Source: Bryobacterales bacterium (GTDB lineage: Bacteria > Acidobacteriota > Terriglobia > Bryobacterales > UBA6623). From it: a stretch of DNA of 24,000 nucleotides. The stretch spans positions 21,176 to 45,175 of the forward strand of contig JAJDZN010000235.1 in the NCBI GenBank assembly GCA_022824585.1, read 5' to 3'. The notes beneath the pieces were generated by a model. That model saw only the letters and a list, made by a program, of their open reading frames with translations, did no database searches and had not been told where the DNA came from. The translations under genes and the position numbers were made by a program. This document shows, piece after piece, positions 1,610 through 17,396 of the stretch (positions within the stretch are counted from its first letter, which is position 1; every line of letters begins with the position of its first letter).

Positions 1610-1619
1610 GCGCTATGAT
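1610..1619 (+). promoter_or_regulatory. GCGCTATGAT motif (-10-like TATGAT) immediately upstream of sulfatase 1
   Basis: The identical 10-mer recurs at 3320-3329 in front of sulfatase 2. TATGAT (1614-1619) lies 10 nt before ATG 1630. No Shine-Dalgarno is evident. Confidence 0.35.
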
Positions 1620-3120
1620 CGCATCTCAGATGGCCACTAGACGCGAATTCATCGGCGGGATCAGCGCTCTGTTAGGAGCCGTCGGCTGCAGCTCCCGGCA
1701 AGACCGCGAGCGACCCATGAACGTCCTGTTCCTGTTCCCCGACCAGATGCGGGCGCAGGCGATGGGCTGCATGGGAAATCCGGACGTAAAGACCCCGAAT
1801 CTGGACCGGCTCGCCGCCGAGGGCGTGCTGTTCCGCAATCACTTCGCGAATTCGCCGGTGTGCTGCCCGGCACGCGCGATCATCCTGACCGGCAAGTACG
1901 CCCACACCAACGGCATGATCGCCAACGATCTGCGCCTCCGCGAATCCGAGACCAGCGTGGCCGAGCTGTTCGCCGAGGCCGGATACCGCACCGGCTTTGT
2001 CGGCAAGTGGCATCTGGACGGGGGCCCGCGCCAGCCGGGCTGGATCCCGCCCGGAGCGAGGCGGCAGGGGTTTGAGTTCTGGGCCGCGAACGAAGTGAGC
2101 CACGCTCACTTCGACACGCACTACTTCCGGGACGATCCCGAACCGATCCCGATCAAGTCCTTCGAAGCCTCGGCTTGGACCGATATCGGCATTGAGTTCT
2201 TGCGCCAGACCGAGCAGGACGCGCGCCCGTTCTTCCTGACGGTCCAAATGGGCCCGCCGCACGATCCATACATCGCCCCGGACGAATACATGGCGCTGTA
2301 CGATCCAGACGCCCTGACGCTGCGGCCGAATTTCGACGGCGACACGAGCGACCGCGAGCTGGAGCCGAGCCCCTATGTGAAGACGCCGGGCCGCAAGGAG
2401 ATCGCAGCCTACTACGCGATGGTGACCGCGGTGGACGATCAAGTCGGAAGGATTCTTGGCGAGCTCGACGAACTCGGACTGCGCGACAACACGATCGTCA
2501 TCGTGTCCTCGGATCACGGCGACATGCTGGGATCCCACGGGACGCGGCTGAAGCGAAAGCCCTGGGAGGAATCGATCCTGGTGCCCGGAATCGTGCGGCA
2601 TCCCGACGCGCCGGCCGGACGCGAAACCGATGCTCTGTTCTCTCACGTGGACATCGCGCCGACACTGCTCTCGCTGTGCGGATTGCCCGTGCCGCCGGAG
2701 ATGCAGGGAGCGAGCCTTGCGCCGGTGGTGCTCGGGCAGGCGGACTCGGGACCGAGCGCAGCCTACTTTCAGATCTTCGGGCCGTTCCTCGCCGGTGGCG
2801 TGGAGCAGGGCTGGCGCGGGCTGCGCACAGACCGCTTCATGTACGCTCGCACGAAGGACGCACCTTGGCTCCTGTACGACCTCGAGGCTGATCCGTACGA
2901 ACTGGAAAATCTTGTCGCAGATCCGGAAGCCGGCCCGACGCTTGCCGAACTCGACGCCGAACTAGCGCGCTGGATGGAGCGAACCGGGGACTCGTGGGAC
3001 TTCGATTGGACGGCTCCGATCGAAGATGGCGGGCGACTCTACAAGCACGAGGCGTTCTACACGGTCGAGGATTTCTTCCAGTGGGCGGCCGAGAACCCCG
3101 AGCTCGCGCAACTGCCGTGA
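1615..3120 (+). CDS. type I (Cys-type) sulfatase with twin-arginine signal peptide
   Basis: 501-aa ORF. The Tat-like leader MATRREFIGGISALLGAVGCSS suggests the true start may be ATG 1630 rather than 1615. Motifs: formylglycine C-x-P-x-R in SPVCCPARAIILTGKY, plus GKWHLDG and VSSDHGDMLGSHG. Confidence 0.9.
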   Translation: MIASQMATRREFIGGISALLGAVGCSSRQDRERPMNVLFLFPDQMRAQAMGCMGNPDVKTPNLDRLAAEGVLFRNHFANSPVCCPARAIILTGKYAHTNGMIANDLRLRESETSVAELFAEAGYRTGFVGKWHLDGGPRQPGWIPPGARRQGFEFWAANEVSHAHFDTHYFRDDPEPIPIKSFEASAWTDIGIEFLRQTEQDARPFFLTVQMGPPHDPYIAPDEYMALYDPDALTLRPNFDGDTSDRELEPSPYVKTPGRKEIAAYYAMVTAVDDQVGRILGELDELGLRDNTIVIVSSDHGDMLGSHGTRLKRKPWEESILVPGIVRHPDAPAGRETDALFSHVDIAPTLLSLCGLPVPPEMQGASLAPVVLGQADSGPSAAYFQIFGPFLAGGVEQGWRGLRTDRFMYARTKDAPWLLYDLEADPYELENLVADPEAGPTLAELDAELARWMERTGDSWDFDWTAPIEDGGRLYKHEAFYTVEDFFQWAAENPELAQLP

Positions 3121-3319
3121 CAGACATCGATCGCTAGCCACCGCATCGGCGGCCGGAAGCGACTACGGCCGGCACCTCGCGGGCGACGCGACAAGGCCTC
3201 GCTGCGAATCGCATCCGGGCTCGACCGGCAGTCCGCGGCTCGCGAGAGTCCCGCTCTGGATCCGACCGGCCAGGCACCCGGCAGGACTGTGCCTCGGCCA
3301 GATCCGACTCTGAGTGCGG

Positions 3320-3329
3320 GCGCTATGAT
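3320..3329 (+). promoter_or_regulatory. GCGCTATGAT motif (-10-like TATGAT) immediately upstream of sulfatase 2
   Basis: Same 10-mer as at 1610-1619. TATGAT (3324-3329) lies 6 nt before GTG 3336. No Shine-Dalgarno is evident. Confidence 0.35.
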
Positions 3330-3335
3330 GTTGCG

Positions 3336-4940
3336 GTGATTTCCTCGAAGCGGATCGGACGCCGGCAGTTCTTGCAACGCTGTAGCGCGGCCGCGCCCCT
3401 AGCAGCTGCCGCCTGCTCCCAGCAAGCTTCCGAGCCGACGCGCAAGCAACCCAACATCGTGATGATCATGTCGGACGACATGGGGTACTCCGACCTTGGC
3501 TGCTATGGCGGGGAGATCGAGACGCCGAATCTTGACCGGCTCGCCGGCCAAGGCCTGCGCTTCACTCGCTACTACACCAACAACATGTGTGTGCCAACCC
3601 GGGCATCGCTGATGAGCGGCTGCTACACGACCAAGGCGCTCAGCTCTGGCAACTCTGGCAACAGCATTTCGCAGGACGTCGTCAGCCTCGCAGAGGTGCT
3701 GCACAGCGGCGGCTATTCGACCTACATGAGCGGAAAGTGGCACCTCTCGAACGGGGGCGAGCACGCCAGCCTGCCCTGCCAGCGCGGCTTCGATAGGTTC
3801 TTCGGCACGACGCTCGGGGCCTGCAGCTTCTGGACGCCGGCCTCGCTGATGCTCGACAACGAGCCGGCCGAACACCTCTACCTCGACCCGGACTTCTACT
3901 ACACGGACGCCACCACCGACTACGCGGCGGACTTCATGCGCGACGGCCTGGCCAAGGACGCGCCGTTCTTCCTCTACGTGGCCTACACCGCGGCGCACTG
4001 GCCGCTGCACGCCTTTGAGAGCGATATCGCCCACTATCAAGGGCGCTACGAGCATGGCTGGGACGCTCTCCGAGCGGACCGGCACGCACGCATGCTGGAG
4101 ATCGGCTCGGTCAACCCGGCTTGGGATCTGTCGCCGCGGAATCCGCAGGTTCCGGCTTGGTCGGACGAGCCCCACAAGGCTTGGCAGCAACGCCGCATGG
4201 AGGTTTACGCCGCCCAGATAACCCGCATGGACGCGGGCATCGGCAGGCTGCTGGACCTGTTGGAGGAATCCGGCGAGGCCGACAACACGCTCGTGGTCTT
4301 CCAGATTGACAACGGCGGGTGCCACGTCGAATATGAGGTCGACCGCAAGGGCCCGTACCTGCCGGAGCGGACTCGGGACGGCCGCCCGGTCATTCCGGGC
4401 AACGTCCCGGAGGTCATGCCCGGCCCCGAGGACACCTACCAGAGCTACGGGTACGGCTGGGCGAATGCTTCCAACACCCCTTTCCGGCTCTACAAGCAGC
4501 ATGATCACGAGGGAGGGATCAACGTGCCGCTGATCGCACGCTGGCCGGCTGTAATCGAGCCTGGCGGCATGACCGACCAGCTGGCCCACGTGATCGACCT
4601 GATGCCAACCTTCGTCGATGCGGCCGGACTCGAGCAGCCATCCGAGTTCCAGCAACGAGCGGTCCACTCGCCCGACGGCAGAAGCCTGCGGCCGGTCTTC
4701 GCGGGCGCGTCTCGCGAGCCGGCATCGGAACTGTACTGGAAATGGAGCCGCGGCCGGGCGATCAGGCAGGGACAGTGGAAGCTCGTAGCAGTGCGCGAGC
4801 GCCCGTGGGAGCTGTACGACATCGAGCGCGACGGCACAGAGTTGCACGACTTGGCCGCTGATCACCCCGGTCGAGTCAGCGAGATGGCTCGGCTTTGGAA
4901 CGCTTGGGCGCAGGGGCCGCCGCGGTTGCCCGGGCATTGA
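3336..4940 (+). CDS. arylsulfatase A-like type I sulfatase with twin-arginine signal peptide
   Basis: 534-aa ORF with GTG start. Leader IGRRQFLQRCSAAAPLAAAACS. Motifs: MSDDMGYSDLGCYG, CVPTRASLMSGCY (C-x-P-x-R), GKWHLS, IDNGG. Confidence 0.9.
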   Translation: MISSKRIGRRQFLQRCSAAAPLAAAACSQQASEPTRKQPNIVMIMSDDMGYSDLGCYGGEIETPNLDRLAGQGLRFTRYYTNNMCVPTRASLMSGCYTTKALSSGNSGNSISQDVVSLAEVLHSGGYSTYMSGKWHLSNGGEHASLPCQRGFDRFFGTTLGACSFWTPASLMLDNEPAEHLYLDPDFYYTDATTDYAADFMRDGLAKDAPFFLYVAYTAAHWPLHAFESDIAHYQGRYEHGWDALRADRHARMLEIGSVNPAWDLSPRNPQVPAWSDEPHKAWQQRRMEVYAAQITRMDAGIGRLLDLLEESGEADNTLVVFQIDNGGCHVEYEVDRKGPYLPERTRDGRPVIPGNVPEVMPGPEDTYQSYGYGWANASNTPFRLYKQHDHEGGINVPLIARWPAVIEPGGMTDQLAHVIDLMPTFVDAAGLEQPSEFQQRAVHSPDGRSLRPVFAGASREPASELYWKWSRGRAIRQGQWKLVAVRERPWELYDIERDGTELHDLAADHPGRVSEMARLWNAWAQGPPRLPGH

Positions 4941-6365: not shown

Positions 6366-7670
6366 ATGTCGAACCTAGCAGTCTTGGGCCTCCAGTGGGG
6401 CGACGAGGGCAAAGGCAAGCTGATTGACCTGGCGGCCGAGCACTACGACGTGGTGGTTCGCTGCCAAGGTGGCAACAACGCCGGGCACACGGTACAGGTC
6501 GCCGACCGCGTCTACAAGCTCTCGCTGATCCCGAGCGGCGTTCTGAGACCGGGCAAGATCGGGGTGGTCGGCAACGGAGTGGTGATCAATCCGGAAGCTC
6601 TGCTCAGCGAGATCGAGACTCTCCGTTCGCTGGGCGTGGATGTTGAATCGAACCTGCTGGTGAGCAACCGCGCTCATGTTGTGTTCCCCTACCACCCGAT
6701 GCTCGAGCGCTCGTCCGAGGCATCGCCCGGCAAGCGGCGCATCGGCACAACTTCCCGAGGCATCGGCCCGTGCTACGAAGACAAAGTCGCGCGGCGCGGG
6801 ATTCGCGTCGCCGAACTGCTGTCGCCAACCCACTTCCCGGAGCGCTTCCGCGCGATGGCGTCCGAAAAATCCGCAGTGGCTGAAGCGCTGGGCGTTCACG
6901 AGCCCTGGGACGTGGAAGCCGCGCTAGCGCGCTACCAAGAACTCGCCGAGCGCATGCGCCCGTTCGTGACCGAAACCGGAAAGTACCTCAACCAAGCGAT
7001 CCAGGACGGAAAGCGCCTGCTCTTCGAGGGGGCCCAGGCCACGATGCTCGACATCGACTTCGGCACATACCCCTACCTGACCTCTTCGAACGCCACCGCC
7101 GGCGGGCTGTGCACGGGATCGGGCGTTTCGCCGCGATTCCTGCATCACATCGTGGGAGTGGCCAAGGCTTACGCCACGCGTGTCGGCGAGGGCCCGTTCG
7201 TGACAGAAGCGCATGGGCCGGCGGGAGACGATCTCAGGCAGGCCGGAGCCGAGTACGGGACGGTGACCGGACGTCCGCGGCGTTGCGGCTGGTTCGACAT
7301 CCCCCTGCTGCGGTACGCTCACGCGATTAACCACCTGTCCTCCTTGTTCATCACCAAGCTGGACGTGCTCGACCACCTGGACACGGTTCCCGTTTGCACC
7401 GGCTACCGTTACAAGGGAGGGATGCTCGACTGGATGCCGGCGATCGCCGAAGAGTATGCGGAGGTCGAGCCGGTCTACGAGGAACTGCCGGGATGGAACG
7501 GTCCCACGGCGGGGATCACCGAGTTCGAGCGGCTGCCGCGTGCCGCCAAGGACTACATCGCGTTCCTAGAGGACCGCCTCGAGATCGAGATCGGCGGCGT
7601 CTCGACCGGCCCGAAACGCGATGAAACGATCATCCGCGCCGGTTCGACCCTTCAGCGCGTGACCGCGTAA
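6366..7670 (+). CDS. purA: adenylosuccinate synthetase
   Basis: 434 aa, full length. Motifs: P-loop GLQWGDEGKGK, GGNNAGHT, TSRGIGPCYEDK, GTVTGRPRRCGWFD, ITKLDVLD. Confidence 0.95.
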   Translation: MSNLAVLGLQWGDEGKGKLIDLAAEHYDVVVRCQGGNNAGHTVQVADRVYKLSLIPSGVLRPGKIGVVGNGVVINPEALLSEIETLRSLGVDVESNLLVSNRAHVVFPYHPMLERSSEASPGKRRIGTTSRGIGPCYEDKVARRGIRVAELLSPTHFPERFRAMASEKSAVAEALGVHEPWDVEAALARYQELAERMRPFVTETGKYLNQAIQDGKRLLFEGAQATMLDIDFGTYPYLTSSNATAGGLCTGSGVSPRFLHHIVGVAKAYATRVGEGPFVTEAHGPAGDDLRQAGAEYGTVTGRPRRCGWFDIPLLRYAHAINHLSSLFITKLDVLDHLDTVPVCTGYRYKGGMLDWMPAIAEEYAEVEPVYEELPGWNGPTAGITEFERLPRAAKDYIAFLEDRLEIEIGGVSTGPKRDETIIRAGSTLQRVTA

Positions 7671-7772: not shown

Positions 7773-9878
7773 CTAGTCGCCGCTGGTACCGACCGTCTCG
7801 CGCGGCGCCTCGGAAGCCCCGCCAATCTGGACCAACGCCGGCGCCACGGGCTCCTTGAGGACGTCCTGGCGGTACATCTTCATCAGCCGCGCTTCCTCCT
7901 CGGCCGACAGCTTGCGATCGCGCGCGCCGCTTGCAGGCACGTGTTCGCCGCTGGCCTCCGCCGCTTGGAGCTTCTTGTCACGCGCCGCAATCTTCTCTTC
8001 GCGGGCATTCTGCGGACCCTCGGAGACTTGCGCGCCGCGCGCCGCATGCTCGGCATTGATGTGCAGCTGCTCGCTCAGGTGGGTGATCTCGTCCACCTTG
8101 CGGCCGCCGGCATAGATCTTGTGGCGGCCGTGCTCGCCGTACCAGTTCGACAGCGTGGCGGTCATGTGCATCTTCTCGATGATGTTGCGCCAGCCGATGC
8201 CCGTGTTGTAGGCGCAGAACGAGATCTCGCCCTCTTGCGTGCCGTACGGGATCACGCACATCTCGGTGCGCCGGAAGTCGTAGTTGAACAGATCCTGGAA
8301 CCACATGCCCGCCACGAACAGGAAGTTCCACGGATCGTTCCGCCTGGCCGTGCCCTTGCCGTAGCTCTTGCCGCTCAGCGAGAACGACTTGTCGAACTTC
8401 TTCAGCAAGTCGAACATCGAGAAGTCCTTGGGAGCCTTCGCCGGGTTGTAGTTCTTCAACAGCGCCAGCGCCATCTGGACATTGGACGCCAGCTTGCCCC
8501 GGCCCGAATCGGTGACGCGCCGGATGTCCTGCACGAACTGCGGGACGTTGATGAACTCCGCCACGGGCGACATGTCCTTGGTCTGCTTGTTGATCATCAA
8601 GGCGGTGCCGACGCCGCAGTTGGGGTGGCAGCCGCAGCTGACCTGGCCCCACTGGGCCTGCGGCCCGTGCGCCAAGTCGGCCGCGTCGACGAAGCTGCCC
8701 ATCACGGAGATGGGGAACCAGTCGCGCGTCGGCTCGGTGATGCCGACCTGCTTCTTGACGTCGTGCGCCAGGTGGCTCAGCGTGTAGCGCTGGCGCATGC
8801 GGCGCTCGTCGGTGATCTCCTCGTCACGGCCGGTGAACGAAACCGGCTGGAAGGCGATGAAGGCGATCCGGCCGGGGTTGTCCCTGGCGAACTGGATGAT
8901 CGGGCCGACCTCCTCGTTGTTGACGTTATTGACCAGCGTGGTCACCAGCACGATCTCGATGCCGGCATCGTGCATGTTCTCGATCGCCTTGATCTTGACG
9001 TCGAACAGGTTGCCGATCTTGCGGTGCTGGTTCGGCTCGTTGCCGATGCCGTCGATCTGCAGGTAGGCGTAGCGCATGCCCGCGTCCGCGGCGGCCTCGG
9101 CGAACTCGCGGTTCTTGGCGAACTCGATGCCGTTGGTGGCGGCCTGGACCGAGTTGTAGCCGATCTGGCGGCAGTACTGCACGGCCTTGAGGAAGTACGG
9201 CGACATCGTCGGCTCGCCGCCCGAGAACTGCACCGACATCTGGCGGCGCGGCTTGATCTTGATGGCGTTGTCGAGGATCGTCTTGATCTCTTCCCACTCG
9301 AGCTCGTGGACGAAGCCGACCTGGTTGGCGTCCATGAAGCACGGGTCGCACATCATGTTGCAGCGGTTGGTGAGATCGACGGTCAGCACCGCACCGCGGC
9401 CGAACTTCACGCTCGAGGAGCCGTGGTTGTGCAGTTCCTCGTCGTTGTGGGAGCGAATATCGCGTCCGGGGAACTGGGCTTCGATGTGCTCCAAGAACTT
9501 GGCGTCGATCGCCATCACATCTTCGGTCTTGCCGTGAATGGGGCAGTCCTTGACCATCCAGATCTCGTTGCCGCGCTGCACGATCGTGGCCTTGACCTCG
9601 CCGACCTTCTCGGTCTTGAGGATGGAATAGTCGACCTCGCCGCTGAGGATCACCTCGCGAGCCTCGCGCACGCATTTCGGGCACAGGGAGTCAGTCTCCC
9701 GCGGCCAGCCCAGCGGCGGCTTGCTCTTCTCCCACGACTTGAGCATGGGCTTCTCCGACCAAGCGGGCGTGAAGGCAGGGTTGGCCTCCTTGCGGGCGTC
9801 CCACTTGCGGGCCACCTTCCAGCCAGCGCGCGCCACCTCGGTCAGGCCCTTTTCTAGATACTTCACCGGTCGTTGCAC
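7773..9878 (-). CDS. large radical SAM enzyme, COG1964 / Tes (GDGT-MAS)-like architecture
   Basis: 701 aa with GTG start and GAGGAG Shine-Dalgarno about 8 nt upstream. N-terminal Cys knuckles SLCPKC ... DCPIHG. Radical-SAM cluster motif CNMMCDPC (codons at nt 9339-9362). Further motifs: VQFSGGEPT, ATNG, YLQIDG, FQPVSFTGR. C-terminal Cys motifs SCGCHPNCG and CVIPYG...ISFCAYNTG. The radical-SAM call is firm; the subfamily call is from memory of archaeal MJ0619-type sequences. Confidence 0.85.
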   Translation of the reverse strand: MQRPVKYLEKGLTEVARAGWKVARKWDARKEANPAFTPAWSEKPMLKSWEKSKPPLGWPRETDSLCPKCVREAREVILSGEVDYSILKTEKVGEVKATIVQRGNEIWMVKDCPIHGKTEDVMAIDAKFLEHIEAQFPGRDIRSHNDEELHNHGSSSVKFGRGAVLTVDLTNRCNMMCDPCFMDANQVGFVHELEWEEIKTILDNAIKIKPRRQMSVQFSGGEPTMSPYFLKAVQYCRQIGYNSVQAATNGIEFAKNREFAEAAADAGMRYAYLQIDGIGNEPNQHRKIGNLFDVKIKAIENMHDAGIEIVLVTTLVNNVNNEEVGPIIQFARDNPGRIAFIAFQPVSFTGRDEEITDERRMRQRYTLSHLAHDVKKQVGITEPTRDWFPISVMGSFVDAADLAHGPQAQWGQVSCGCHPNCGVGTALMINKQTKDMSPVAEFINVPQFVQDIRRVTDSGRGKLASNVQMALALLKNYNPAKAPKDFSMFDLLKKFDKSFSLSGKSYGKGTARRNDPWNFLFVAGMWFQDLFNYDFRRTEMCVIPYGTQEGEISFCAYNTGIGWRNIIEKMHMTATLSNWYGEHGRHKIYAGGRKVDEITHLSEQLHINAEHAARGAQVSEGPQNAREEKIAARDKKLQAAEASGEHVPASGARDRKLSAEEEARLMKMYRQDVLKEPVAPALVQIGGASEAPRETVGTSGD

Positions 9879-9952
9879 TGGTCTCTCCTCGCTCAGATCT
9901 GCTTGTCGCTGCGCCCGGCCGATTCAGCCCGTCGCGCCAGCAAGCCAAGGAC

Positions 9953-9977
9953 CTGTTGCCGATCGATCCGGCAACAG
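9953..9977. promoter_or_regulatory. 9-bp inverted repeat (CTGTTGCCG-atcgatc-CGGCAACAG) in the divergent radical-SAM / queG intergenic region
   Basis: Read directly from the sequence: stem 9953-9961 pairs perfectly with 9969-9977, with a 7-nt loop. It lies 75-99 nt upstream of the radical-SAM GTG and about 145 nt upstream of the queG ATG. Confidence 0.4.
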
Positions 9978-10120: not shown

Positions 10121-11212
10121 ATGGCACTGGAATCGTCTTCTCGCCTGAAGCAGCGGGCGCACGAGCTCGGCTTCGAACTCGCGGGCGTGGCCACACCAGG
10201 GCCAACGCTGGAGGCGATGTTCTACCCGCAGTGGCTGGAGCAGGGCTACCACGGCGAGATGGCCTACCTTGCCGGCCGGCGGGGCGAGCTGCGCGCCGAC
10301 GCCCGCTCCCTGCTGCCATCGGCCAGGTCGGTGATCTGCCTGGGAAAGGTCTACAACACGCCGGACCCCTACTCGACCGAATTCGAAGCCGGCGGGCAGG
10401 GCTGGGTCTCCCGGTACGCCTGGGGCGAGGACTACCACGACCTGATGAAGTCCCGCTTGCAGGAGCTGGCGGAATGGATCCGCCGCGAGTACGGCAGCGG
10501 AGTGAAGTGCAAGGTCTGCGTCGACACCTCGCCGTTGCTAGAGCGGGCCTATGCCCGCACCGCGGGGCTGGGCTGGATCGGCAAGAATTGCTGCCTCATC
10601 GACGAGCAGCTCGGCTCATGGTTCTTCCTCGGGGAGATCTTGACTTCGCTAGAGTTCGAGCCCGACGACGACGCGCCTTACCGCTGCGGCACCTGCCGCC
10701 GCTGCATCGACGCCTGCCCGACCGATGCCTTGGTCGAAGTCGAGGCTGATGCCGGTCCCCCGTACGCCCTAGACTCGCGGCTGTGCATCTCGTACTGGAC
10801 CATCGAGCTGCGCGGGCCCATACCGGCGGACCACCGGGAGTCGATCGGTTCGCACGTGTTCGGCTGCGACATCTGCCAAGATGTCTGCCCTTGGAACAGC
10901 CCGCGGCGGGCAGCCACCAGCGAGGAGCCTTCGTTTGCGCCGGAGAACGCGACACCCGGCTTGGCGGAAATTGCCGAACTTAGCGAGGACGAGTTCAACG
11001 CCCGGTTCGGGGGCTCACCGATCCAGCGCAGCCGCTATGCGGGGTTCCTGCGAAACGTTGCAGTAGCAATGGGCAACAGCGGCAACCTGTCTTTCCAAGA
11101 TGCCTTGAAGAAGCTGGCGCAATCCGGCCAGCCGCTCGTGCGCGAACACGCCGAGTGGGCGCTAGCCAAGCTGCAGCGCGAAACCGAAGGAGAATCACCC
11201 GGCGCGGAGTGA
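10121..11212 (+). CDS. queG: tRNA epoxyqueuosine(34) reductase
   Basis: 363 aa. N-terminal LGFELAGVA...WLEQGYHGEMAYL. Two ferredoxin-type motifs, CGTCRRCIDACP and CDICQDVCPWN. HEAT-like C-terminal tail (VREHAEWALAKL). Confidence 0.9.
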   Translation: MALESSSRLKQRAHELGFELAGVATPGPTLEAMFYPQWLEQGYHGEMAYLAGRRGELRADARSLLPSARSVICLGKVYNTPDPYSTEFEAGGQGWVSRYAWGEDYHDLMKSRLQELAEWIRREYGSGVKCKVCVDTSPLLERAYARTAGLGWIGKNCCLIDEQLGSWFFLGEILTSLEFEPDDDAPYRCGTCRRCIDACPTDALVEVEADAGPPYALDSRLCISYWTIELRGPIPADHRESIGSHVFGCDICQDVCPWNSPRRAATSEEPSFAPENATPGLAEIAELSEDEFNARFGGSPIQRSRYAGFLRNVAVAMGNSGNLSFQDALKKLAQSGQPLVREHAEWALAKLQRETEGESPGAE

Positions 11213-12020: not shown

Positions 12021-13832
12021 GTGAACTTCAGTACCTCGCTGCTCTCTTTCTTGCGGAGCTTCTTGCGGAGCTTGCCCCGGCGAAAGATGGTTCAGCCAAC
12101 ACACGTCGTCGGGGCCGTCACAGCGCTCGGGTTGCTGCTTGCGGGGGTCGGGCGGGCCGCGAAGCCAAACGTCGTGATCGTGATGACGGACGATCAGGGC
12201 TACGGCGATCTTTCCGTCCACGGGAACCCCGTGTTGCGGACGCCAAACTTAGATCGGCTGCATGCCGAGTCGGTCCGCTTCACCGACTTTCATGTCAGCC
12301 CGTTCTGCACGCCCACCAGGGCGGCGCTGATGACTGGTCGATACGCCGCCAGAACCGGCGCGTACCGCACGTCGCACGGCAGCACCGCCATCCATCCGCG
12401 CGAGGTGACGATGGCGGAGGTCTTCGCCGCCAACGGCTACCGGACCGGACTGTTCGGGAAGTGGCACCTTGGCGACAACTATCCCTCGCGGCCGATGGAC
12501 AAGGGCTTCCAACATGCCGTCTGGCACCGCTGCGGGGGCGTGACGCAGATCTCTGACTACTACGGCAACGACTACTTCGACGACACCTACCTCGTGAACG
12601 ACAGCTGGACATCGTTCGAAGGCTACTGCACGGATGTGTGGTTTCGCGAAGCCACCCGCTTCATAGAGGCCGAGTCTAGCGAGCCGTTCTTCGCCTACAT
12701 CGCCACCAACGCGCCGCACGGCCCGTTTCTGGTAGCCCCGCGCTATAGCGACCCATACGAGCGGGCCGGCGACGAAAAGCAGGACGCGGCGTTCAAGGGG
12801 ATGATTGCCAACTTCGACGAGAACCTCGGCAAGTTCCTCGCCAGGCTAGAGACCCTAGGAATCGCCGACAACACGATCCTCATCTTCCTCACGGACAACG
12901 GCACGGCACGCGGTGCCCGCTTCGAAAGCGGCATCAACGGGCTTCCGGATGAAGGCTTCAACGCCGGAATGCGGGGCCGCAAATCTTCGGCCTTCGACGG
13001 CGGCCACCGGGTCCCCCTGTTCATCCGCTGGCCGGCCGGCGGCCTTGGTCGGCCGCGGGATGTCGATGGCCTCGCCGCCCACATCGATCTCTTCCCCACC
13101 CTGATCGAGCTCTGCGGGTTGGAGCGGCGGAGCGGCCCGCCGCTGGACGGGCGATCGCTTGCCGACACGCTTCGAGGGCACGGCCAGCTACCGGACCGAG
13201 TGCTGTTTGCGCAGATTCACGGCGGCGCGGGATTCGCGAGACCCGGCGACCGCTGGGAAGGATCGGCAGTGATGACTGCCCGTTGGCGCTTGGTCGCAGG
13301 CAGCCTTCTCTATGACATGCAACGGGATCCGTCGCAGATCCGCGACGTCGCGTCGGAGCATCCCGAGACGGTCACACGGCTCAGGGCCGCACACGAGCGC
13401 TGGTACCGCTCCATCAAGCCGGCAATGCGCCCCACTCGGATCGTAATCGGCCACGAGGCCGAGAATCCCGCCGACCTTACCAGCCAGGAGTGGCAAGCGC
13501 CTGGCAGCCACGTGGTCTGGAGCCGCAGTCATCTGGAGCAGCGCAAGATGGAGAGCTGGCCGTGGCTGGTAGACGTAAGCCGTGCGGGAAGTTACCGATT
13601 CACCCTCTCTCGCTGGCCTAGGTACTTAGCCCGCCCGATCACATCGACACGGGCCCGGCTGGAGATCGGCGACATCGTCCGCGAATCAGTGATTCCCGAA
13701 CCGGATACTGTCACGGAAGTCTCGTTTGAAGTCGAACTCTCGGCTGGCCCGGCGGAACTCCAGACATGGCTTACGGAACCGGGCGGTCAGACCCACGGCG
13801 CATACTTCGTGAGCGTCGAGCGACTCGAATAG
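12021..13832 (+). CDS. type I sulfatase with about 150-aa C-terminal beta-rich extension
   Basis: 603-aa ORF. Motifs: VMTDDQGYGDLSVHG, CTPTRAALMTGRY (C-x-P-x-R), GKWHLGDN, FLTDNGTARG. The start is uncertain: GTG 12021 gives a leader containing RRK, and ATG 12087 is the alternative. Confidence 0.9.
   Translation: MNFSTSLLSFLRSFLRSLPRRKMVQPTHVVGAVTALGLLLAGVGRAAKPNVVIVMTDDQGYGDLSVHGNPVLRTPNLDRLHAESVRFTDFHVSPFCTPTRAALMTGRYAARTGAYRTSHGSTAIHPREVTMAEVFAANGYRTGLFGKWHLGDNYPSRPMDKGFQHAVWHRCGGVTQISDYYGNDYFDDTYLVNDSWTSFEGYCTDVWFREATRFIEAESSEPFFAYIATNAPHGPFLVAPRYSDPYERAGDEKQDAAFKGMIANFDENLGKFLARLETLGIADNTILIFLTDNGTARGARFESGINGLPDEGFNAGMRGRKSSAFDGGHRVPLFIRWPAGGLGRPRDVDGLAAHIDLFPTLIELCGLERRSGPPLDGRSLADTLRGHGQLPDRVLFAQIHGGAGFARPGDRWEGSAVMTARWRLVAGSLLYDMQRDPSQIRDVASEHPETVTRLRAAHERWYRSIKPAMRPTRIVIGHEAENPADLTSQEWQAPGSHVVWSRSHLEQRKMESWPWLVDVSRAGSYRFTLSRWPRYLARPITSTRARLEIGDIVRESVIPEPDTVTEVSFEVELSAGPAELQTWLTEPGGQTHGAYFVSVERLE
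12048..12071 (+). repeat. perfect tandem duplication of the 12-mer TTCTTGCGGAGC
   Basis: Units 12048-12059 and 12060-12071 are identical, followed by a partial third copy (ttgcc). If GTG 12021 is the start, this encodes SFLRSFLRS in the sulfatase leader. Confidence 0.8.
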
Positions 13833-15449: not shown

Positions 15450-17396
15450 TCAGGGCAGGTCCAGCGCGGGGTTGCGGTCAAAGAAGTCGAACGGGCGAAG
15501 CTCGAAGCCGTACCACATCGTCGGCATGACCGGCCAGTCCTCCGCGCGGGGCAGGTGATGCATGCCGATCGTGTGCCAGACGACAATGTCTCTGTCTCGG
15601 ATCGGCCGGTCGGCCGCAGTCCACGCGGGCAGGCCCATTCCCGGCTCGCTCAAGGTCGGGTGATCACCGGCGGCATGGCGTTCCGCATCTCGTTGCGGGG
15701 TAACCCAGAGGTGGTGATCGATGAACCCAGCTCGCCGCCGAGGGTAGTCATCTTCCGATAGGAGCGTGTTCGCATTTCTGCCGGGCAATATTTGAAAGCT
15801 CGTGGGATAGCCAGAGGAGTTGCGCCTGTCGTTGCTAAGGACCCGCCACAAAGCGGGACGCTCGAGGTTGATATCGAGTAGCGCTTCATGCTCGGTGGCC
15901 GGGACGTGCTCCTGCCGGACCCACAGGCTGCGCCGCGGGTGGTCGGCGGGTAGCCGCTGGGTCACCAAGCGGTCCGCAACGAAGCGGTTGGCCGTTCCAT
16001 CGATGTCCAGATCGAGCCTGTAGCTGAAATAGTGGTCATGGTTTACCGCAACGATGTTGCGATCCACAAATCGGCCATAGGCGTCTGCCTCAGATCCCGC
16101 CTGCAATGCGTTCTTGTCCTTGGTTGCCTTTACTTCCAGGATGCCGGTAGCACCCACGCGGACCTCGATCGACCCGTCCTAGCGAAAGATCCAGTCGAGC
16201 AGGTAGTCGTAGTTTCCTACCACGGCACCCACGCGCACGACGAGGTCGCGGCTCTTGCGGCTGTCCGGCATCTCGGAAGACCAGTGGCGCCAAGCCGGAT
16301 CACCGGTCTCTCTCTCAAAGACACAGATCGTGTCCGGCACAGTGCGCGGGCGCCCTTTGTCGTTGCTCATCACGGTTTCGACATAGGTGGCGTAGTCGGG
16401 ACAGTCACGGCCGCGCAGCAGAGCCTTCGCCAGCCCGCCGGACACGAATTCGCCGGCATCGATGAAATTCCGCCGGTACCAACCGAACGAAGGATCCATG
16501 TATGGGACGAAGATTTCGGACAAATGCCCTTGGTACATCACGGACCGAGTCGGACGGCCTGGTTGCTCTTGGTAGCTCACCAAGGAGAGGACCGCTCCGA
16601 GCCGCTGATCGGGCCGCAGGTGGAAACGCCAGTTCTGCCAACTCACCAGATGCCCGTCGAATTCGAATCCGGGGCCGAGTGGCTGGCGTGTATCCAGCGG
16701 GCCTGGAATCTCGCGCGGGCGTTTGAGGGTGGTGCGGTCGAAGTCTCCATCGGTTGCGCTGAGCGGCACGGGGCCATCGTCTACGACCCGCAGAACCTCC
16801 TCGGATTCGAGATCGACCACCGCCGACAGACCCTCGACTTGGCGGGTCCAAGCGTTCCGGACTCCGCGAGGCTCGGCGCACCGGACATTGCCGATGCGGC
16901 GCCCGCGCTCTTCGTCGGTTCCGAAATAGCCTGGCGGCACCGTGTCGCAATCGAGAAACGTTGTATCGGTGATTCCCCGGGCCTTGAGCGCGTCAAGAAA
17001 GTCAGGATGCTCGAGGACCTTGTCCACGACGGCCTCGTAGTCGTCGCCTGACCAGTTTGGCTGGACTCCGGCGAGCGGTGACCATGCTGCAACTCGGTTT
17101 CCGGCAAGATCGACAATCGCTTCAAAGGCATCCTTGCCTTGGCGCACCACGGCGTAGGCCATGCGCGGCGTTGCAGCCCCGGGACGCCAAGCCTGCACGT
17201 CGCGTTTCGGGGGCTCATGCAGCGTCAACTGGGAGAAGCGAGTCTCTCGGTTCATGTGCCCCGCATCGCGGATGAGCTCGAGCGCTCTCCAGATTTCTTG
17301 GTAGCTGAGCGGATCGAGAGGGTGGTCGGACGCGTGCGCCCCGGCAGGGGCGATGACGGCCGCCAAGGCGATGGTGCAGAGGGGTAGCTTGGTCAC
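15450..17396 (-). pseudogene. copper (topaquinone) primary-amine oxidase interrupted by a single in-frame TAG
   Basis: Listed ORFs 16179-17396 and 15450-16157 are in the same frame, separated by one TAG (16179-16181): ...VVGNYDYLLDWIFR*DGSIEVRVGATGILEVKA.... The joined product is about 648 aa. It has signal peptide MTKLPLCTIALAAVIAPAGAHA, TPQ motif NYDY (Tyr codon 16209-16211), and Cu ligands in NHDHYF and WHTIGMHHLPRAEDWPVMP. Confidence 0.85.

What the first reader, a model, noticed from the sequence alone, without database searches (positions are those of the whole stretch)
7773..9878. Stand-alone bacterial radical-SAM enzyme with the architecture of archaeal tetraether lipid synthase (Tes / GDGT-MAS)
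Seen in sequence: a rubredoxin-like knuckle pair (C66-P-K-C69 ... C112-P-I-H115-G) and the AdoMet cluster motif CNMMCDPC (aa 173-180). Also a collinear string VQFSGGEPT / ATNG / YLQIDG / LVTTLVNNVNN / FQPVSFTGR, followed by two further Cys groups (SCGCHPNCG; CVIPYG...ISFCAYNTG). From memory, this order of motifs is that of the COG1964 family. That family includes M. jannaschii MJ0619 and the archaeal tetraether synthase Tes / GDGT-MAS, which couples two lipid tails by radical C-C bond formation. Bacterial homologues have been proposed, but as far as I know not firmly established, as synthases of membrane-spanning or branched GDGT lipids. This copy also differs from my recollection of the archaeal proteins. 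The Cys-rich segment just before the radical-SAM motif appears to be missing (HNDEELHNHGSSSVKFGRG instead), and both termini are extended. The gene is monocistronic, with its own Shine-Dalgarno and no partner genes in the window.
Basis: partly seen in the sequence, partly recalled or inferred. Interest (0 to 1): 0.7.

Follow-up and report, generated by a model that had tools for sequence, protein, structure and literature searches.

The report
Acidobacterial Tes-like lipid-coupling radical SAM enzyme
This gene from a soil acidobacterium encodes a divergent bacterial relative of the archaeal enzyme that joins two membrane-lipid tails end to end, and it is the leading but still untested candidate for making the membrane-spanning lipids (iso-diabolic acid, brGDGTs) used as palaeoclimate proxies.

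Summary
It stands alone between convergent purA and divergent queG.

It is a homologue of archaeal tetraether synthase Tes/GDGT-MAS. The PDB 7TOL sequence match has E=2e-59. An AlphaFold model (pLDDT 86) matches 7TOM/7TOL with TM 0.86, against 0.5 for the next fold.

It is not a canonical Tes:
- It scores 318 bits against the NCBIfam Tes equivalog, whose cut-off is 450.
- It sits in a separate clade with 100% bootstrap support, found mainly in Acidobacteriota, with some Gemmatimonadota.
- All 241 members examined lack the three Cys of the N-terminal [4Fe-4S] cluster.

The clade keeps the rubredoxin-like site, the radical SAM motif, most of the SAM contacts, the catalytic C-terminal cluster ligands, Met439 and Tyr459. 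It adds clade-invariant H144, H150, C415 and C417, an amphipathic N-terminal helix and a C-terminal tail.

It is the same type as the second Tes homologue of S. usitatus, Acid_2410. That protein was already named as a brGDGT-synthase candidate but has not been tested.

Best reading (about 0.6): omega-omega coupling of iso-C15 lipid tails. This is a new variant of a known kind, and its interest is moderate.

The parts
7773..9878 (-). Complete gene for the 701-aa Tes-like radical SAM protein (GTG start at 9876-9878, stop at 7773-7775)
   Evidence: ORF list. Pfam, NCBIfam and PDB matches. Full-length homologues up to 96% identical.
9885..9890 (-). Shine-Dalgarno sequence GAGGAG, 6 nt before the GTG start
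   Evidence: Sequence read directly.
9795..9869 (-). Clade-specific N-terminal helix (aa 4-28). It is amphipathic with net charge +3. Inferred to be an in-plane membrane anchor.
   Evidence: AlphaFold helix 4-28 with pLDDT 89-97. The highest hydrophobic moment in the protein (0.72), with no transmembrane segment. Absent from archaeal Tes.
9684..9776 (-). Conserved clade-specific N-terminal segment (aa 35-65: FTPAWSEKPMLKSWEKSKPPLGWPRETDSL) leading into the first metal knuckle
   Evidence: W40, K47, P54, G57, P59 and R60 are invariant in 241/241 clade members and are gaps in most archaeal sequences, although archaeal residues do align at 57-60.
9513..9704 (-). Rubredoxin-like Cys3His mononuclear-iron domain (aa 59-122; C66, C69, C112, H115). 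It has a 42-residue spacer between the knuckles, where MJ0619 has 20.
   Evidence: Pfam PF23545, E=5e-13. The ligands match C9/C12/C33/H36 of GDGT-MAS and are invariant.
9393..9449 (-). Loop that replaces the [4Fe-4S]N-binding CX3CX2C segment of archaeal Tes (aa 144-162: H-N-D-E-E-L-H-N-H-G-S-S-S-V-K-F-G-R-G). H144, D146, H150 and H152 are invariant.
   Evidence: The three Cys are absent in 241/241 clade members and present in 118/120 archaeal Tes. H152 aligns with H83 of MJ0619. The model is poorly defined at 145-159.
8826..9374 (-). Radical SAM partial-TIM-barrel core (aa 169-351), including the CX3CX2C motif C173/C177/C180 at 9339-9362, GGEP, YLQxDG and FQPVSFTGR
   Evidence: Pfam PF04055, E=5.5e-20. 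Of the 11 SAM/5'-dAH contact residues of GDGT-MAS, 10 are conserved: F106, G145, Y195, D199, V236, Q268, S271, T273 and R275 in 121/121 sequences and T238 in 117/121. The R210 position is variable and is K287 here.
8097..8825 (-). C-terminal auxiliary-cluster and lipid-pocket domain (aa 352-594). It carries C421, C541, C555 and M525 (equivalent to C338, C455, C470 and Met439 of GDGT-MAS), Y545 (equivalent to Tyr459) and amphipathic helices at 445-514.
   Evidence: C421, M525, C541, Y545 and C555 are invariant across archaeal Tes and this clade. Fold match to 7TOM/7TOL.
8616..8636 (-). C415-G-C417-H418-P-N-C421 motif. C415 and C417 are clade-specific invariant cysteines beside the C-cluster ligand C421.
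   Evidence: 241/241 in the clade. Archaeal Tes have F/L at 415 and V/C/S at 417.
7776..8096 (-). Clade-specific C-terminal extension (aa 595-701) with two predicted helices (625-642, 659-673) and a disordered end
   Evidence: It has no counterpart in MJ0619. Structure prediction. It is partly conserved.
9953..9977 (.). Inverted repeat CTGTTGCCG-N7-CGGCAACAG in the 242-nt region between the gene and divergent queG, about 75-100 nt upstream of the start. It could be an operator or a 5'-UTR hairpin. Its role is unknown.
   Evidence: Sequence. Found only in the closest relatives L001 and L002.

Best explanation
The gene encodes a peripheral-membrane radical SAM enzyme of the Tes/GDGT-MAS family. 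It most likely joins the terminal (omega) carbons of two iso-C15 acyl or alkyl chains of membrane glycerolipids. The product would be the C30 13,16-dimethyloctacosane unit of iso-diabolic acid lipids and brGDGTs, which turns bilayer lipids into membrane-spanning ones.

The proposed mechanism is taken by analogy with GDGT-MAS:
1. The C173/C177/C180 cluster cleaves SAM to give a 5'-deoxyadenosyl radical.
2. That radical abstracts H from a chain terminus held in a hydrophobic tunnel.
3. The substrate radical is parked on a sulfide of the C-terminal [4Fe-4S] cluster (C421, C541, C555, labile M525).
4. A second SAM cleavage activates the second tail, which attacks to form the C-C bond.

Electrons presumably enter through the retained Cys3His iron site.

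What is shown here: homology, fold, conservation of the catalytic residues, loss of the N-terminal cluster ligands, clade separation and taxonomic distribution.

What is inferred: the substrate, the product, the mechanism, the membrane-anchoring role of the N-terminal helix, and any metal site formed by H144, H150, H152, C415 and C417.
For: Homology:
- PDB 7TOL E=1.9e-59 over aa 94-579.
- The NCBIfam Tes model is covered 2-483 of 486 at 318 bits.

Fold:
- The model has pLDDT 85.8 and pTM 0.86.
- Foldseek to 7TOM gives E=8e-38 and TM 0.86. The next hit is MoaA at E=4e-9 and TM 0.5.

Catalytic apparatus:
- Of the 11 SAM/5'-dAH contact residues, 9 are invariant and T238 is kept in 117/121. The R210 position is variable.
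- The three invariant C-cluster Cys, Met439 and Tyr459 are conserved in 239-241 of 241 clade members.

Literature:
- GDGT-MAS binds diacyl phosphatidic acid in the same pockets as archaeol and binds head groups non-specifically.
- iso-C15 and phytanyl termini are structurally identical.
- Acidobacteria have no mss homologue, yet nearly all species of subdivisions 1, 3, 4 and 6 make iso-diabolic acid.
- E. aggregans, which makes iso-diabolic acid and brGDGT, has a single Tes homologue at 32% identity and E=4e-61, which is the signature of this clade.

Distribution:
- The clade occurs in Acidobacteriaceae/Edaphobacter/Terracidiphilus/Korobacteraceae (SD1), Bryobacterales (SD3), Pyrinomonadaceae/Chloracidobacterium (SD4) and Vicinamibacterales (SD6).
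- iso-Diabolic acid is 27-49% of fatty acids in Occallatibacter/Terracidiphilus and is a primary fatty acid in Chloracidobacterium.
- Conservation is very high, at 83-93% within SD1 and 62% between SD1 and SD3. The gene is abundant in soil metagenomes, as expected for a core membrane enzyme.
Against: - No experiment on any bacterial Tes homologue exists. The co-occurrence evidence rests on taxon labels of MAGs and on published phenotypes, not on a genome-by-genome presence/absence test.
- Sahonero-Canavesi et al. found Tes homologues in only 3 of 14 iso-diabolic-acid-producing acidobacteria and proposed an alternative pathway. I attribute this to their 30% identity threshold, because the clade is 27-36% identical to Methanococcales Tes. 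That is an inference.
- S. usitatus carries this type (Acid_2410) together with a canonical Tes (Acid_5929), and free iso-diabolic acid was not detected there. The two paralogues may divide the work differently.
- The clade also occurs in Gemmatimonadota, for which I know of no membrane-spanning lipid report.
- No lipid-biosynthesis gene is a conserved neighbour.
- The score is below the Tes equivalog cut-off and one metallocofactor site differs.
Confidence: 0.6

Rival explanations
1. A lipid-tail radical SAM enzyme that carries out a different reaction from omega-omega coupling. Possibilities are intramolecular macrocyclisation, a mid-chain cross-link, or another C-H functionalisation of iso-branched lipids or of another hydrophobic substrate. 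The true coupling in Acidobacteria would then be done by the canonical Tes paralogue or by an unidentified enzyme.
For: - The clade is separated from canonical Tes with 100% bootstrap support and scores below the equivalog cut-off.
- The cofactor set is altered and there are clade-specific invariant residues.
- Some acidobacteria (S. usitatus, Koribacter) also carry a canonical Tes at 40-42% identity.
- Gemmatimonadota relatives pair the gene with a second radical SAM gene.
Against: - E. aggregans has only this type, yet it makes the coupled C30 chain.
- The residues around the reaction centre, including the C-cluster ligands, Met and Tyr, are the ones most strictly conserved with GDGT-MAS.
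- GDGT-MAS itself already performs both macrocyclisation and intermolecular coupling in one site.
Confidence: 0.22
2. A non-lipid enzyme. It could be a 'class D' radical SAM methyltransferase acting on a pterin or another cofactor, as MJ0619 was first annotated and as JGI still labels some homologues. Alternatively it could be an RNA or cofactor enzyme linked to the neighbouring queG.
For: - JGI names for clade members include '7,8-dihydro-6-hydroxymethylpterin dimethyltransferase'.
- queG lies divergently upstream in 11 distinct loci from several lineages.
Against: - The pterin-methylase annotation of MJ0619 was overturned by the structure, which shows a long hydrophobic tunnel with bound lipids.
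- The predicted fold matches that lipid enzyme over the whole chain, including the amphipathic-helix pocket domain.
- queG adjacency is absent from most loci, for example those of Pyrinomonadaceae, SD1 and Gemmatimonadota.
- There is no cobalamin or folate domain.
Confidence: 0.08
3. A catalytically degenerate or purely structural or regulatory paralogue that has lost full Tes chemistry along with the N-terminal cluster.
For: - The [4Fe-4S]N ligand triad is lost.
- More divergent relatives in the same super-clade (P0248, P0260, P0288) have also lost C-cluster cysteines.
Against: - In this clade the radical SAM motif, 10 of 11 SAM contacts and every C-cluster ligand are conserved under strong purifying selection.
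- A canonical-scoring Tes (P0348, 584 bits) also lacks the N-cluster motif, so that cluster is not indispensable to the family.
- The roles of the non-catalytic metallocofactors in GDGT-MAS are unknown.
Confidence: 0.04

Closest known systems
Archaeal tetraether synthase Tes / GDGT-MAS (M. jannaschii MJ0619, PDB 7TOL/7TOM; NCBIfam NF045702)
   Same: - Same domain order: a rubredoxin-like Cys3His site, then the radical SAM core, then the C-terminal cluster and lipid-pocket domain.
- Same fold, with TM 0.86.
- Conserved CX3CX2C motif, 10 of 11 SAM contacts, C338/C455/C470 with Met439 as cluster ligands, and Tyr459.
   Different: - About 30% identity, and 318 bits against a cut-off of 450.
- A separate clade with 100% bootstrap support.
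- The C73/C77/C80 triad of [4Fe-4S]N is replaced by an invariant H-x-D-x3-H-x-H loop.
- Two extra invariant Cys (C415, C417).
- A 22-residue insertion in the rubredoxin domain.
- About 57 extra N-terminal residues with an amphipathic helix, and about 120 extra C-terminal residues.
- A bacterial host whose lipids are fatty-acid based rather than isoprenoid.
S. usitatus Ellin6076 Acid_2410 (Q025C7, 714 aa) and the single Tes homologue of Edaphobacter aggregans
   Same: - Same length class and the same roughly 30-32% identity with E of about 1e-61 to M. acetivorans Tes.
- Same order (Bryobacterales) in the case of Solibacter.
- Both were proposed in 2022 as candidate brGDGT tail-coupling enzymes.
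- Clade members of 713-715 aa at 75-78% identity were found.
   Different: I could not retrieve the Acid_2410 sequence itself. Orthology is therefore inferred from length, similarity statistics and taxonomy, not from a direct alignment. Neither protein has been tested experimentally.
Canonical bacterial Tes homologues (S. usitatus Acid_5929, Ca. Koribacter versatilis; representatives P0292-P0384)
   Same: Same family. They are also bacterial, and also only hypothesised to make membrane-spanning lipids.
   Different: They keep the N-cluster CX3CX2C motif, are about 500-550 aa long without the extensions, score 474-593 bits against the Tes equivalog, and group with the archaeal enzymes.
Bacterial membrane-spanning lipid synthase Mss (Thermotoga maritima, Thermoanaerobacter ethanolicus)
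   Same: A radical SAM enzyme shown to couple two fatty-acyl tails into diabolic or iso-diabolic acids. This is the same kind of chemistry and product as proposed here.
   Different: It is a different radical SAM lineage. No Tes homologue was detected in those organisms and no mss was detected in Acidobacteria. It has been found only in anaerobes and is active only anaerobically in E. coli. I did not compare the sequences directly.
TrsS radical SAM (seleno)protein (NCBIfam NF045646)
   Same: It is the second-best NCBIfam hit and shares the N-terminal and radical SAM portions.
   Different: 196 bits against a cut-off of 490. Only aa 94-379 are matched, and the C-terminal domain does not follow that model.

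Membership tests
Tes / GDGT-MAS (tetraether lipid synthase) | Radical SAM CX3CX2C cluster motif and the SAM/5'-dAH contact residues (F106, G145, Y195, D199, R210, V236, T238, Q268, S271, T273, R275) | tested here: met
   C173/C177/C180 are present. Nine contact residues are conserved in 121/121 sequences and T238 in 117/121. The R210 position is variable (K 67, R 24, Q 16, H 11) and is K287 here, with an adjacent Arg.
Tes / GDGT-MAS (tetraether lipid synthase) | Rubredoxin-like mononuclear iron site with Cys3His ligation (C9, C12, C33, H36) | tested here: met
   C66, C69, C112 and H115 are invariant in 241 clade members. Pfam PF23545 has E=5e-13.
Tes / GDGT-MAS (tetraether lipid synthase) | N-terminal auxiliary [4Fe-4S] cluster ligated by C73, C77, C80 and a His | tested here: not met
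   The three Cys are absent in 241/241 clade members and present in 118/120 archaeal Tes. Only the His (H152, equivalent to H83) is retained. One canonical-scoring Tes (P0348) also lacks the motif.
Tes / GDGT-MAS (tetraether lipid synthase) | C-terminal auxiliary [4Fe-4S] cluster (3 Cys plus labile Met439) and invariant Tyr459 at the reaction centre | tested here: met
   C421, C541, C555, M525 and Y545 are invariant across 52 archaeal and 63 clade sequences and are kept in 239-241 of 241 clade members. The assignment of the three Cys as ligands is inferred from invariance, because the paper does not number them.
Tes / GDGT-MAS (tetraether lipid synthase) | Overall four-domain fold with a hydrophobic lipid tunnel | tested here: met
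   Foldseek to 7TOM/7TOL gives E=8e-38 and 1.5e-36, TM 0.86 normalised to the target, and 541-548 aligned columns.
Tes / GDGT-MAS (tetraether lipid synthase) | Score at or above the NCBIfam NF045702 equivalog cut-off (450 bits) | tested here: not met
   The query scores 317.7 bits. Clade relatives P0241 and P0247 score 299 and 414. Canonical forms score 474-744.
Tes / GDGT-MAS (tetraether lipid synthase) | Phylogenetic placement within the clade that contains the characterised enzymes | tested here: not met
   A neighbour-joining tree (36 sequences, 479 columns, 100 bootstraps) splits the N-cluster-less bacterial group from archaeal plus canonical Tes at 100%. This is a distance method only, and the tree has no outgroup.
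Tes / GDGT-MAS (tetraether lipid synthase) | Catalysis of tail-to-tail C(sp3)-C(sp3) coupling of two lipid chains | not testable with these tools
   This needs heterologous expression, gene deletion or an in vitro assay. No such data exist for any bacterial homologue.
Mss (bacterial membrane-spanning lipid synthase) | Sequence homology to T. maritima / T. ethanolicus Mss beyond the radical SAM core | not tested
The literature reports no mss homologue in Acidobacteria.
TrsS radical SAM (seleno)protein | Score at or above the NF045646 cut-off (490 bits) over the full model | tested here: not met
   196 bits, with only model positions 13-296 of 441 matched.
SPASM/twitch radical SAM maturases and cofactor enzymes (NirJ, AhbC/D, MoaA, PqqE, MftC and others) | Full-length match, including the C-terminal SPASM/twitch cluster domain, at the family cut-off | tested here: not met
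   Only the radical SAM core (aa 138-379 at most) matches, at 30-79 bits against cut-offs of 180-650. The fold hits cover only about 200-390 alignment columns (about 230 for the best ones), at TM 0.27-0.71.

The most novel reading that the evidence does not exclude
This clade, rather than Mss or the canonical Tes paralogue, is the long-sought enzyme that makes iso-diabolic acid and the brGDGT carbon skeleton in aerobic soil Acidobacteria. It does so with a re-engineered cofactor set. The surface-exposed N-terminal [4Fe-4S] cluster of the archaeal enzyme is replaced by a different, clade-invariant His/Cys site (H144, H150, H152, C415, C417), possibly as an adaptation to oxygen. An amphipathic N-terminal helix docks the enzyme on the membrane.
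Probability: 0.45. Interest if true: 0.75.

Novelty: new variant of a known kind. Interest (0 to 1): 0.5.

Why it matters
brGDGTs are among the most widely used terrestrial palaeothermometers and pH proxies, but the organisms and enzymes that make them are still poorly constrained. In Acidobacteria, which are the only cultured brGDGT producers and are major iso-diabolic-acid producers, the tail-coupling enzyme has not been identified. They lack Mss, and an earlier screen concluded that most also lack Tes homologues.

The analysis here suggests that conclusion may be a threshold artefact. A distinct and highly conserved Tes-like clade was found in MAGs or genomes assigned to all four iso-diabolic-acid-producing subdivisions. 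A signature that is simple to recognise defines it:
- no CX3CX2C motif before the radical SAM motif;
- an H-x-D-x3-H-x-H loop in its place;
- a C-x-C-H-x-x-C motif;
- a length of about 650-720 aa.

If the function is confirmed, a clade-specific marker would allow brGDGT and iso-diabolic-acid producers to be traced in metagenomes. It would also give enzymologists a natural variant of GDGT-MAS that lacks one auxiliary cluster. The idea itself dates from 2022, and nothing in this window adds experimental weight to it.

Tried and rejected
- **Conserved gene neighbours.** I clustered all ORFs within 7 kb in 80 related loci and ran tblastn with the window's queG and purA. No universal partner emerged. 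queG is divergent in 11 distinct loci, surE-pcm-dedA lie downstream only in Pyrinomonadaceae and related SD4-type loci, and purA is adjacent only in the closest relatives. SD1 and Korobacteraceae loci are also stand-alone.
- **Regulatory RNA and promoters.** Rfam found nothing in the whole window. The sigma-70 scan found no promoter, and the terminator hits were at background level.
- **Organism names for cultured strains.** The listing of cluster members returned no organism names beyond one Terracidiphilus MAG record.
- **Published tables.** The supplement of Sahonero-Canavesi et al. (table S21) is not held. The Zeng et al. supplements contain no acidobacterial names.
- **AlphaFold-database fold search.** This would have given UniProt orthologues such as Q025C7, but the library is not installed.
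- **Suspected intein.** The 3.1-kb 'match' in Gemmatimonadota loci looked like an intein. It is a separate upstream radical SAM gene that the tool merged into the match.
- **First tree attempt.** The Biopython distance calculator timed out. The tree was redone with my own Kimura distances.
- **Distances between C415/C417 and H144/H150/H152.** These could not be measured because the model coordinates are not exposed.
- **Rejected readings.** A SPASM/twitch maturase or MoaA/NirJ-type enzyme is rejected because only the core matches. TrsS is rejected because the score is below its cut-off and the match is partial.


Full report
**1. The observation**

Window 7773-9878 on the minus strand is a single 701-aa ORF with a GTG start. 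GAGGAG lies 6 nt upstream of the start.

The 638-aa ORF on the opposite strand is a shadow ORF typical of a window with 59-68% GC. The minus-strand product matches several libraries:
- Pfam Radical_SAM at aa 169-331, E=5.5e-20.
- Pfam PF23545, the 'HMPTM N-terminal zinc ribbon', at aa 59-122, E=5e-13.
- The NCBIfam Tes model, E=1e-94.
- The solved GDGT-MAS structure 7TOL, E=1.9e-59 over aa 94-579.

More than 8000 homologues exist, and the closest are 96% identical over the full length.

The gene lies between convergent purA (6366-7670) and divergent queG (10121-11212), so it is monocistronic. The rest of the window holds gamma-glutamyltranspeptidase, three sulfatases, SodC, a copper amine oxidase, an enolase-superfamily protein, YceD, PlsX and others. 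None of these is an evident partner.

The window is 97.7% identical in DNA to a Bryobacterales MAG (CBDCOA010000003.1), so the source is a close relative of that acidobacterium.

**2. What it is**

An AlphaFold2 model was built on an alignment of 62 clade members and 52 archaeal Tes. It has mean pLDDT 85.8 and pTM 0.86. Foldseek against the PDB returns 7TOM and 7TOL at E=8e-38 and 1.5e-36, with TM 0.86 relative to the target. The next hit is MoaA at E=4e-9 and TM 0.5, matching only the radical SAM core.

I mapped the functional residues published for GDGT-MAS onto alignments of the query, 240 clade members and 119 archaeal Tes. The following are retained:
- The Cys3His rubredoxin-like site (C66, C69, C112, H115).
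- The CX3CX2C motif (C173, C177, C180).
- Ten of the eleven SAM/5'-dAH contact residues. F181, G221, Y272, D276, V312, Q344, S347, T349 and R351 are invariant, and T314 is kept in 117 of 121 sequences. The R210 position is variable and is K287 here, with an adjacent Arg.
- The labile Met ligand of the C-terminal cluster (M525, equivalent to Met439).
- Tyr459 (Y545).
- The three cysteines of the C-terminal domain that are invariant across both groups (C421, C541, C555).

[quoted passage not shown] They are present in 118 of 120 archaeal Tes.

In its place is a loop with invariant H144, D146, H150 and H152, where H152 aligns with H83 of MJ0619. The model is disordered exactly there, at 145-159. 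Two further cysteines, C415 and C417, are invariant in the clade. Archaeal Tes mostly lack a Cys at these positions, having F/L at 415 and V, C or S at 417.

The protein has only 12 Cys. A third, conventionally ligated [4Fe-4S] cluster is therefore impossible.

**3. A separate subfamily**

- The query scores 318 bits against the NCBIfam Tes equivalog, whose cut-off is 450.
- Its more distant relatives P0241 and P0247 score 299 and 414.
- Canonical forms, bacterial or archaeal, score 474-744.
- A neighbour-joining tree (36 sequences, 479 columns) separates the N-cluster-less group from canonical plus archaeal Tes in 100 of 100 bootstraps. The acidobacterial clade itself also has 100% support.

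Within the same super-clade there are degenerate relatives that have also lost C-cluster cysteines (P0248, P0260, P0288).

The clade carries extensions that archaeal Tes lack:
- An N-terminal helix (aa 4-28) that is confidently predicted and has the highest hydrophobic moment in the protein, with net charge +3. There is no transmembrane segment.
- A conserved W-x6-K...P-P-L-G-W-P-R segment.
- A 22-residue insertion between the rubredoxin knuckles.
- A C-terminal tail of about 120 residues with two helices.

I infer that the N-terminal helix is a membrane-docking element.

**4. Distribution and context**

The 80 best genomic loci come from these groups:
- Bryobacterales and other Terriglobia, including the cultured Acidipila rosea.
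- Pyrinomonadaceae, Blastocatellia and Chloracidobacterium.
- Vicinamibacterales.
- Gemmatimonadota.

A search seeded with the Acidipila protein returns Edaphobacter, Terracidiphilus, Korobacteraceae and many soil-metagenome clusters at 83-93% identity. Some clusters have more than 2000 member sequences.

No gene is a conserved neighbour across lineages. The exception is Gemmatimonadota. All six loci carry a 416-aa radical SAM gene with a Cys-rich C-terminal region directly upstream on the same strand.

**5. What is known**

- Zeng et al. 2022 reported 456 bacterial Tes homologues and hypothesised a role in brGDGT synthesis. They noted one homologue in E. aggregans (32% identity, E=4e-61) and closer ones (40-42%) in Koribacter and Solibacter.
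- Halamka et al. 2022 listed two homologues in S. usitatus. Acid_5929 is 545 aa and 40% identical. Acid_2410 is 714 aa and 30% identical, with E=4e-62. They proposed that one or both perform the coupling. The window protein is of the Acid_2410 type.
- Sahonero-Canavesi et al. 2022 showed that a different radical SAM enzyme, Mss, makes diabolic and iso-diabolic acids in Thermotoga and Thermoanaerobacter. They found no mss in Acidobacteria. They found Tes homologues in only 3 of 14 iso-diabolic-acid producers and concluded that Acidobacteria use another pathway. Their thresholds were E<=1e-50 and identity >=30%.
- Against six Methanococcales Tes sequences, all clade members pass the E-value threshold. 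Their identities range from 27 to 36%, with a median near 30%, so only 24-86% pass the identity threshold depending on the query. This is a plausible reason for the '3 of 14' result, but it is an inference.
- Papers from 2024 to 2026 still state that the function of bacterial Tes homologues is unconfirmed. Searches for functional tests found none.

**6. How it most likely works**

By analogy with GDGT-MAS:
1. The enzyme would take two glycerolipids with iso-C15 chains into two hydrophobic pockets.
2. It would use two sequential SAM cleavages to abstract H from each terminal carbon.
3. It would hold the first radical as a C-S adduct on the C-terminal cluster.
4. It would form the omega-omega C-C bond, giving the C30 unit of iso-diabolic acid and brGDGTs.

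The main supporting points are:
- GDGT-MAS accepts diacyl lipids in its pockets and binds head groups non-specifically.
- The iso-C15 terminus is chemically identical to a phytanyl terminus.
- E. aggregans has only this type of homologue and makes the coupled chain.
- Acidobacteria lack Mss.
- The clade is found in all four iso-diabolic-acid-producing subdivisions.
- iso-Diabolic acid can be 27-49% of fatty acids in SD1 strains, which fits a highly conserved, constitutively placed gene.

I put this reading at about 0.6. The rivals are a different lipid-tail reaction (0.22), a non-lipid function (0.08) and a degenerate protein (0.04).

The points against are:
- No experiment exists.
- The co-occurrence evidence comes from taxon labels and not from a genome-by-genome test.
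- S. usitatus has both paralogues and no detectable free iso-diabolic acid.
- The clade occurs in Gemmatimonadota, for which I know of no membrane-spanning lipid report.
- The cofactor set is altered.

**7. Verdict**

The protein works like, and folds like, Tes/GDGT-MAS. It fails three membership tests for canonical Tes: the N-cluster ligands, the equivalog score and the tree position. It is best described as a distinct bacterial Tes-like subfamily.

It is not a new candidate, because proteins of the same type were flagged in 2022. The features that define the clade, and the possible explanation for the earlier negative screen, are what this analysis adds. Interest is moderate (0.5). The finding bears directly on a long-standing open question and is readily testable, but the hypothesis is already in the literature and this window adds no functional evidence.

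Noticed in passing
window 15450-17396 (-), stop codon at 16179-16181: The copper amine oxidase gene is interrupted by an in-frame TAG. The close relatives L001, L002 and L004 have CAG (Gln) at that codon. This is a nonsense mutation, so the gene is a pseudogene or the base is a sequencing error in this genome.
   Followed up: yes
window 9953-9977: A 9-bp inverted repeat, CTGTTGCCG-N7-CGGCAACAG, lies in the region between the Tes-like gene and queG, about 75-100 nt upstream of the Tes-like start. Only the two closest relatives keep an equivalent repeat, and L002 has changes in the loop. It could be an operator or a 5'-UTR hairpin.
   Followed up: partly
L033 9743-10993 (also L031, L035, L040, L053, L060): In all six Gemmatimonadota loci a 416-aa radical SAM protein lies directly upstream of the Tes-like gene on the same strand, about 60 nt away in L033. 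It has a CX3CX2C motif and a Cys-rich, SPASM/twitch-like C-terminus, and it matches no equivalog family. Published work reports gms (cross-linking synthase) homologues clustered with bacterial tes. Whether this protein is one was not tested.
   Followed up: partly
L089 and L090, 11990-13462 (Korobacteraceae contigs): A B12-binding radical SAM gene (490 aa) lies 2.9 kb downstream of the Tes-like gene. It could be a lipid methylase or a ring-synthase-like enzyme. Ca. Koribacter makes C6-methylated iso-diabolic acid tetraesters.
   Followed up: no
proteins P0248, P0260, P0288 (from the representative library): These relatives are 37-42% identical to the query. They lack the N-cluster motif and have also lost C-cluster cysteines, including the equivalent of C421. 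They form their own branch with 100% support. They may be degenerate or neofunctionalised paralogues, and their hosts are unknown.
   Followed up: partly
protein P0348 (from the representative library): This canonical-scoring Tes (584 bits, grouping with the archaeal enzymes) also lacks the N-terminal CX3CX2C motif, and it has not gained C415/C417 equivalents. The N-terminal cluster has therefore been lost more than once in the family.
   Followed up: partly
window 10121-11212 (+); L081-L085, L015, L032, L061 and others: queG (epoxyqueuosine reductase) lies divergently upstream of the Tes-like gene in 11 distinct loci whose Tes-like proteins are 62-100% identical to the query. It is absent from that position in Pyrinomonadaceae, SD1 and Gemmatimonadota. 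This is probably inherited synteny and not a functional link.
   Followed up: partly
window 1615-4940 and 12021-13832: Three sulfatase paralogues, together with gamma-glutamyltranspeptidase, a tannase/feruloyl esterase and an enolase-superfamily enzyme, point to a lifestyle of degrading sulfated polysaccharides.
   Followed up: no
L081-L084, about 10.9-15.5 kb: In a related Bryobacterales lineage (Tes-like protein P0024, 80% identical) the region downstream of the gene carries variable numbers of DDE transposase genes in different assemblies. This is a local hotspot for insertion sequences.
   Followed up: no
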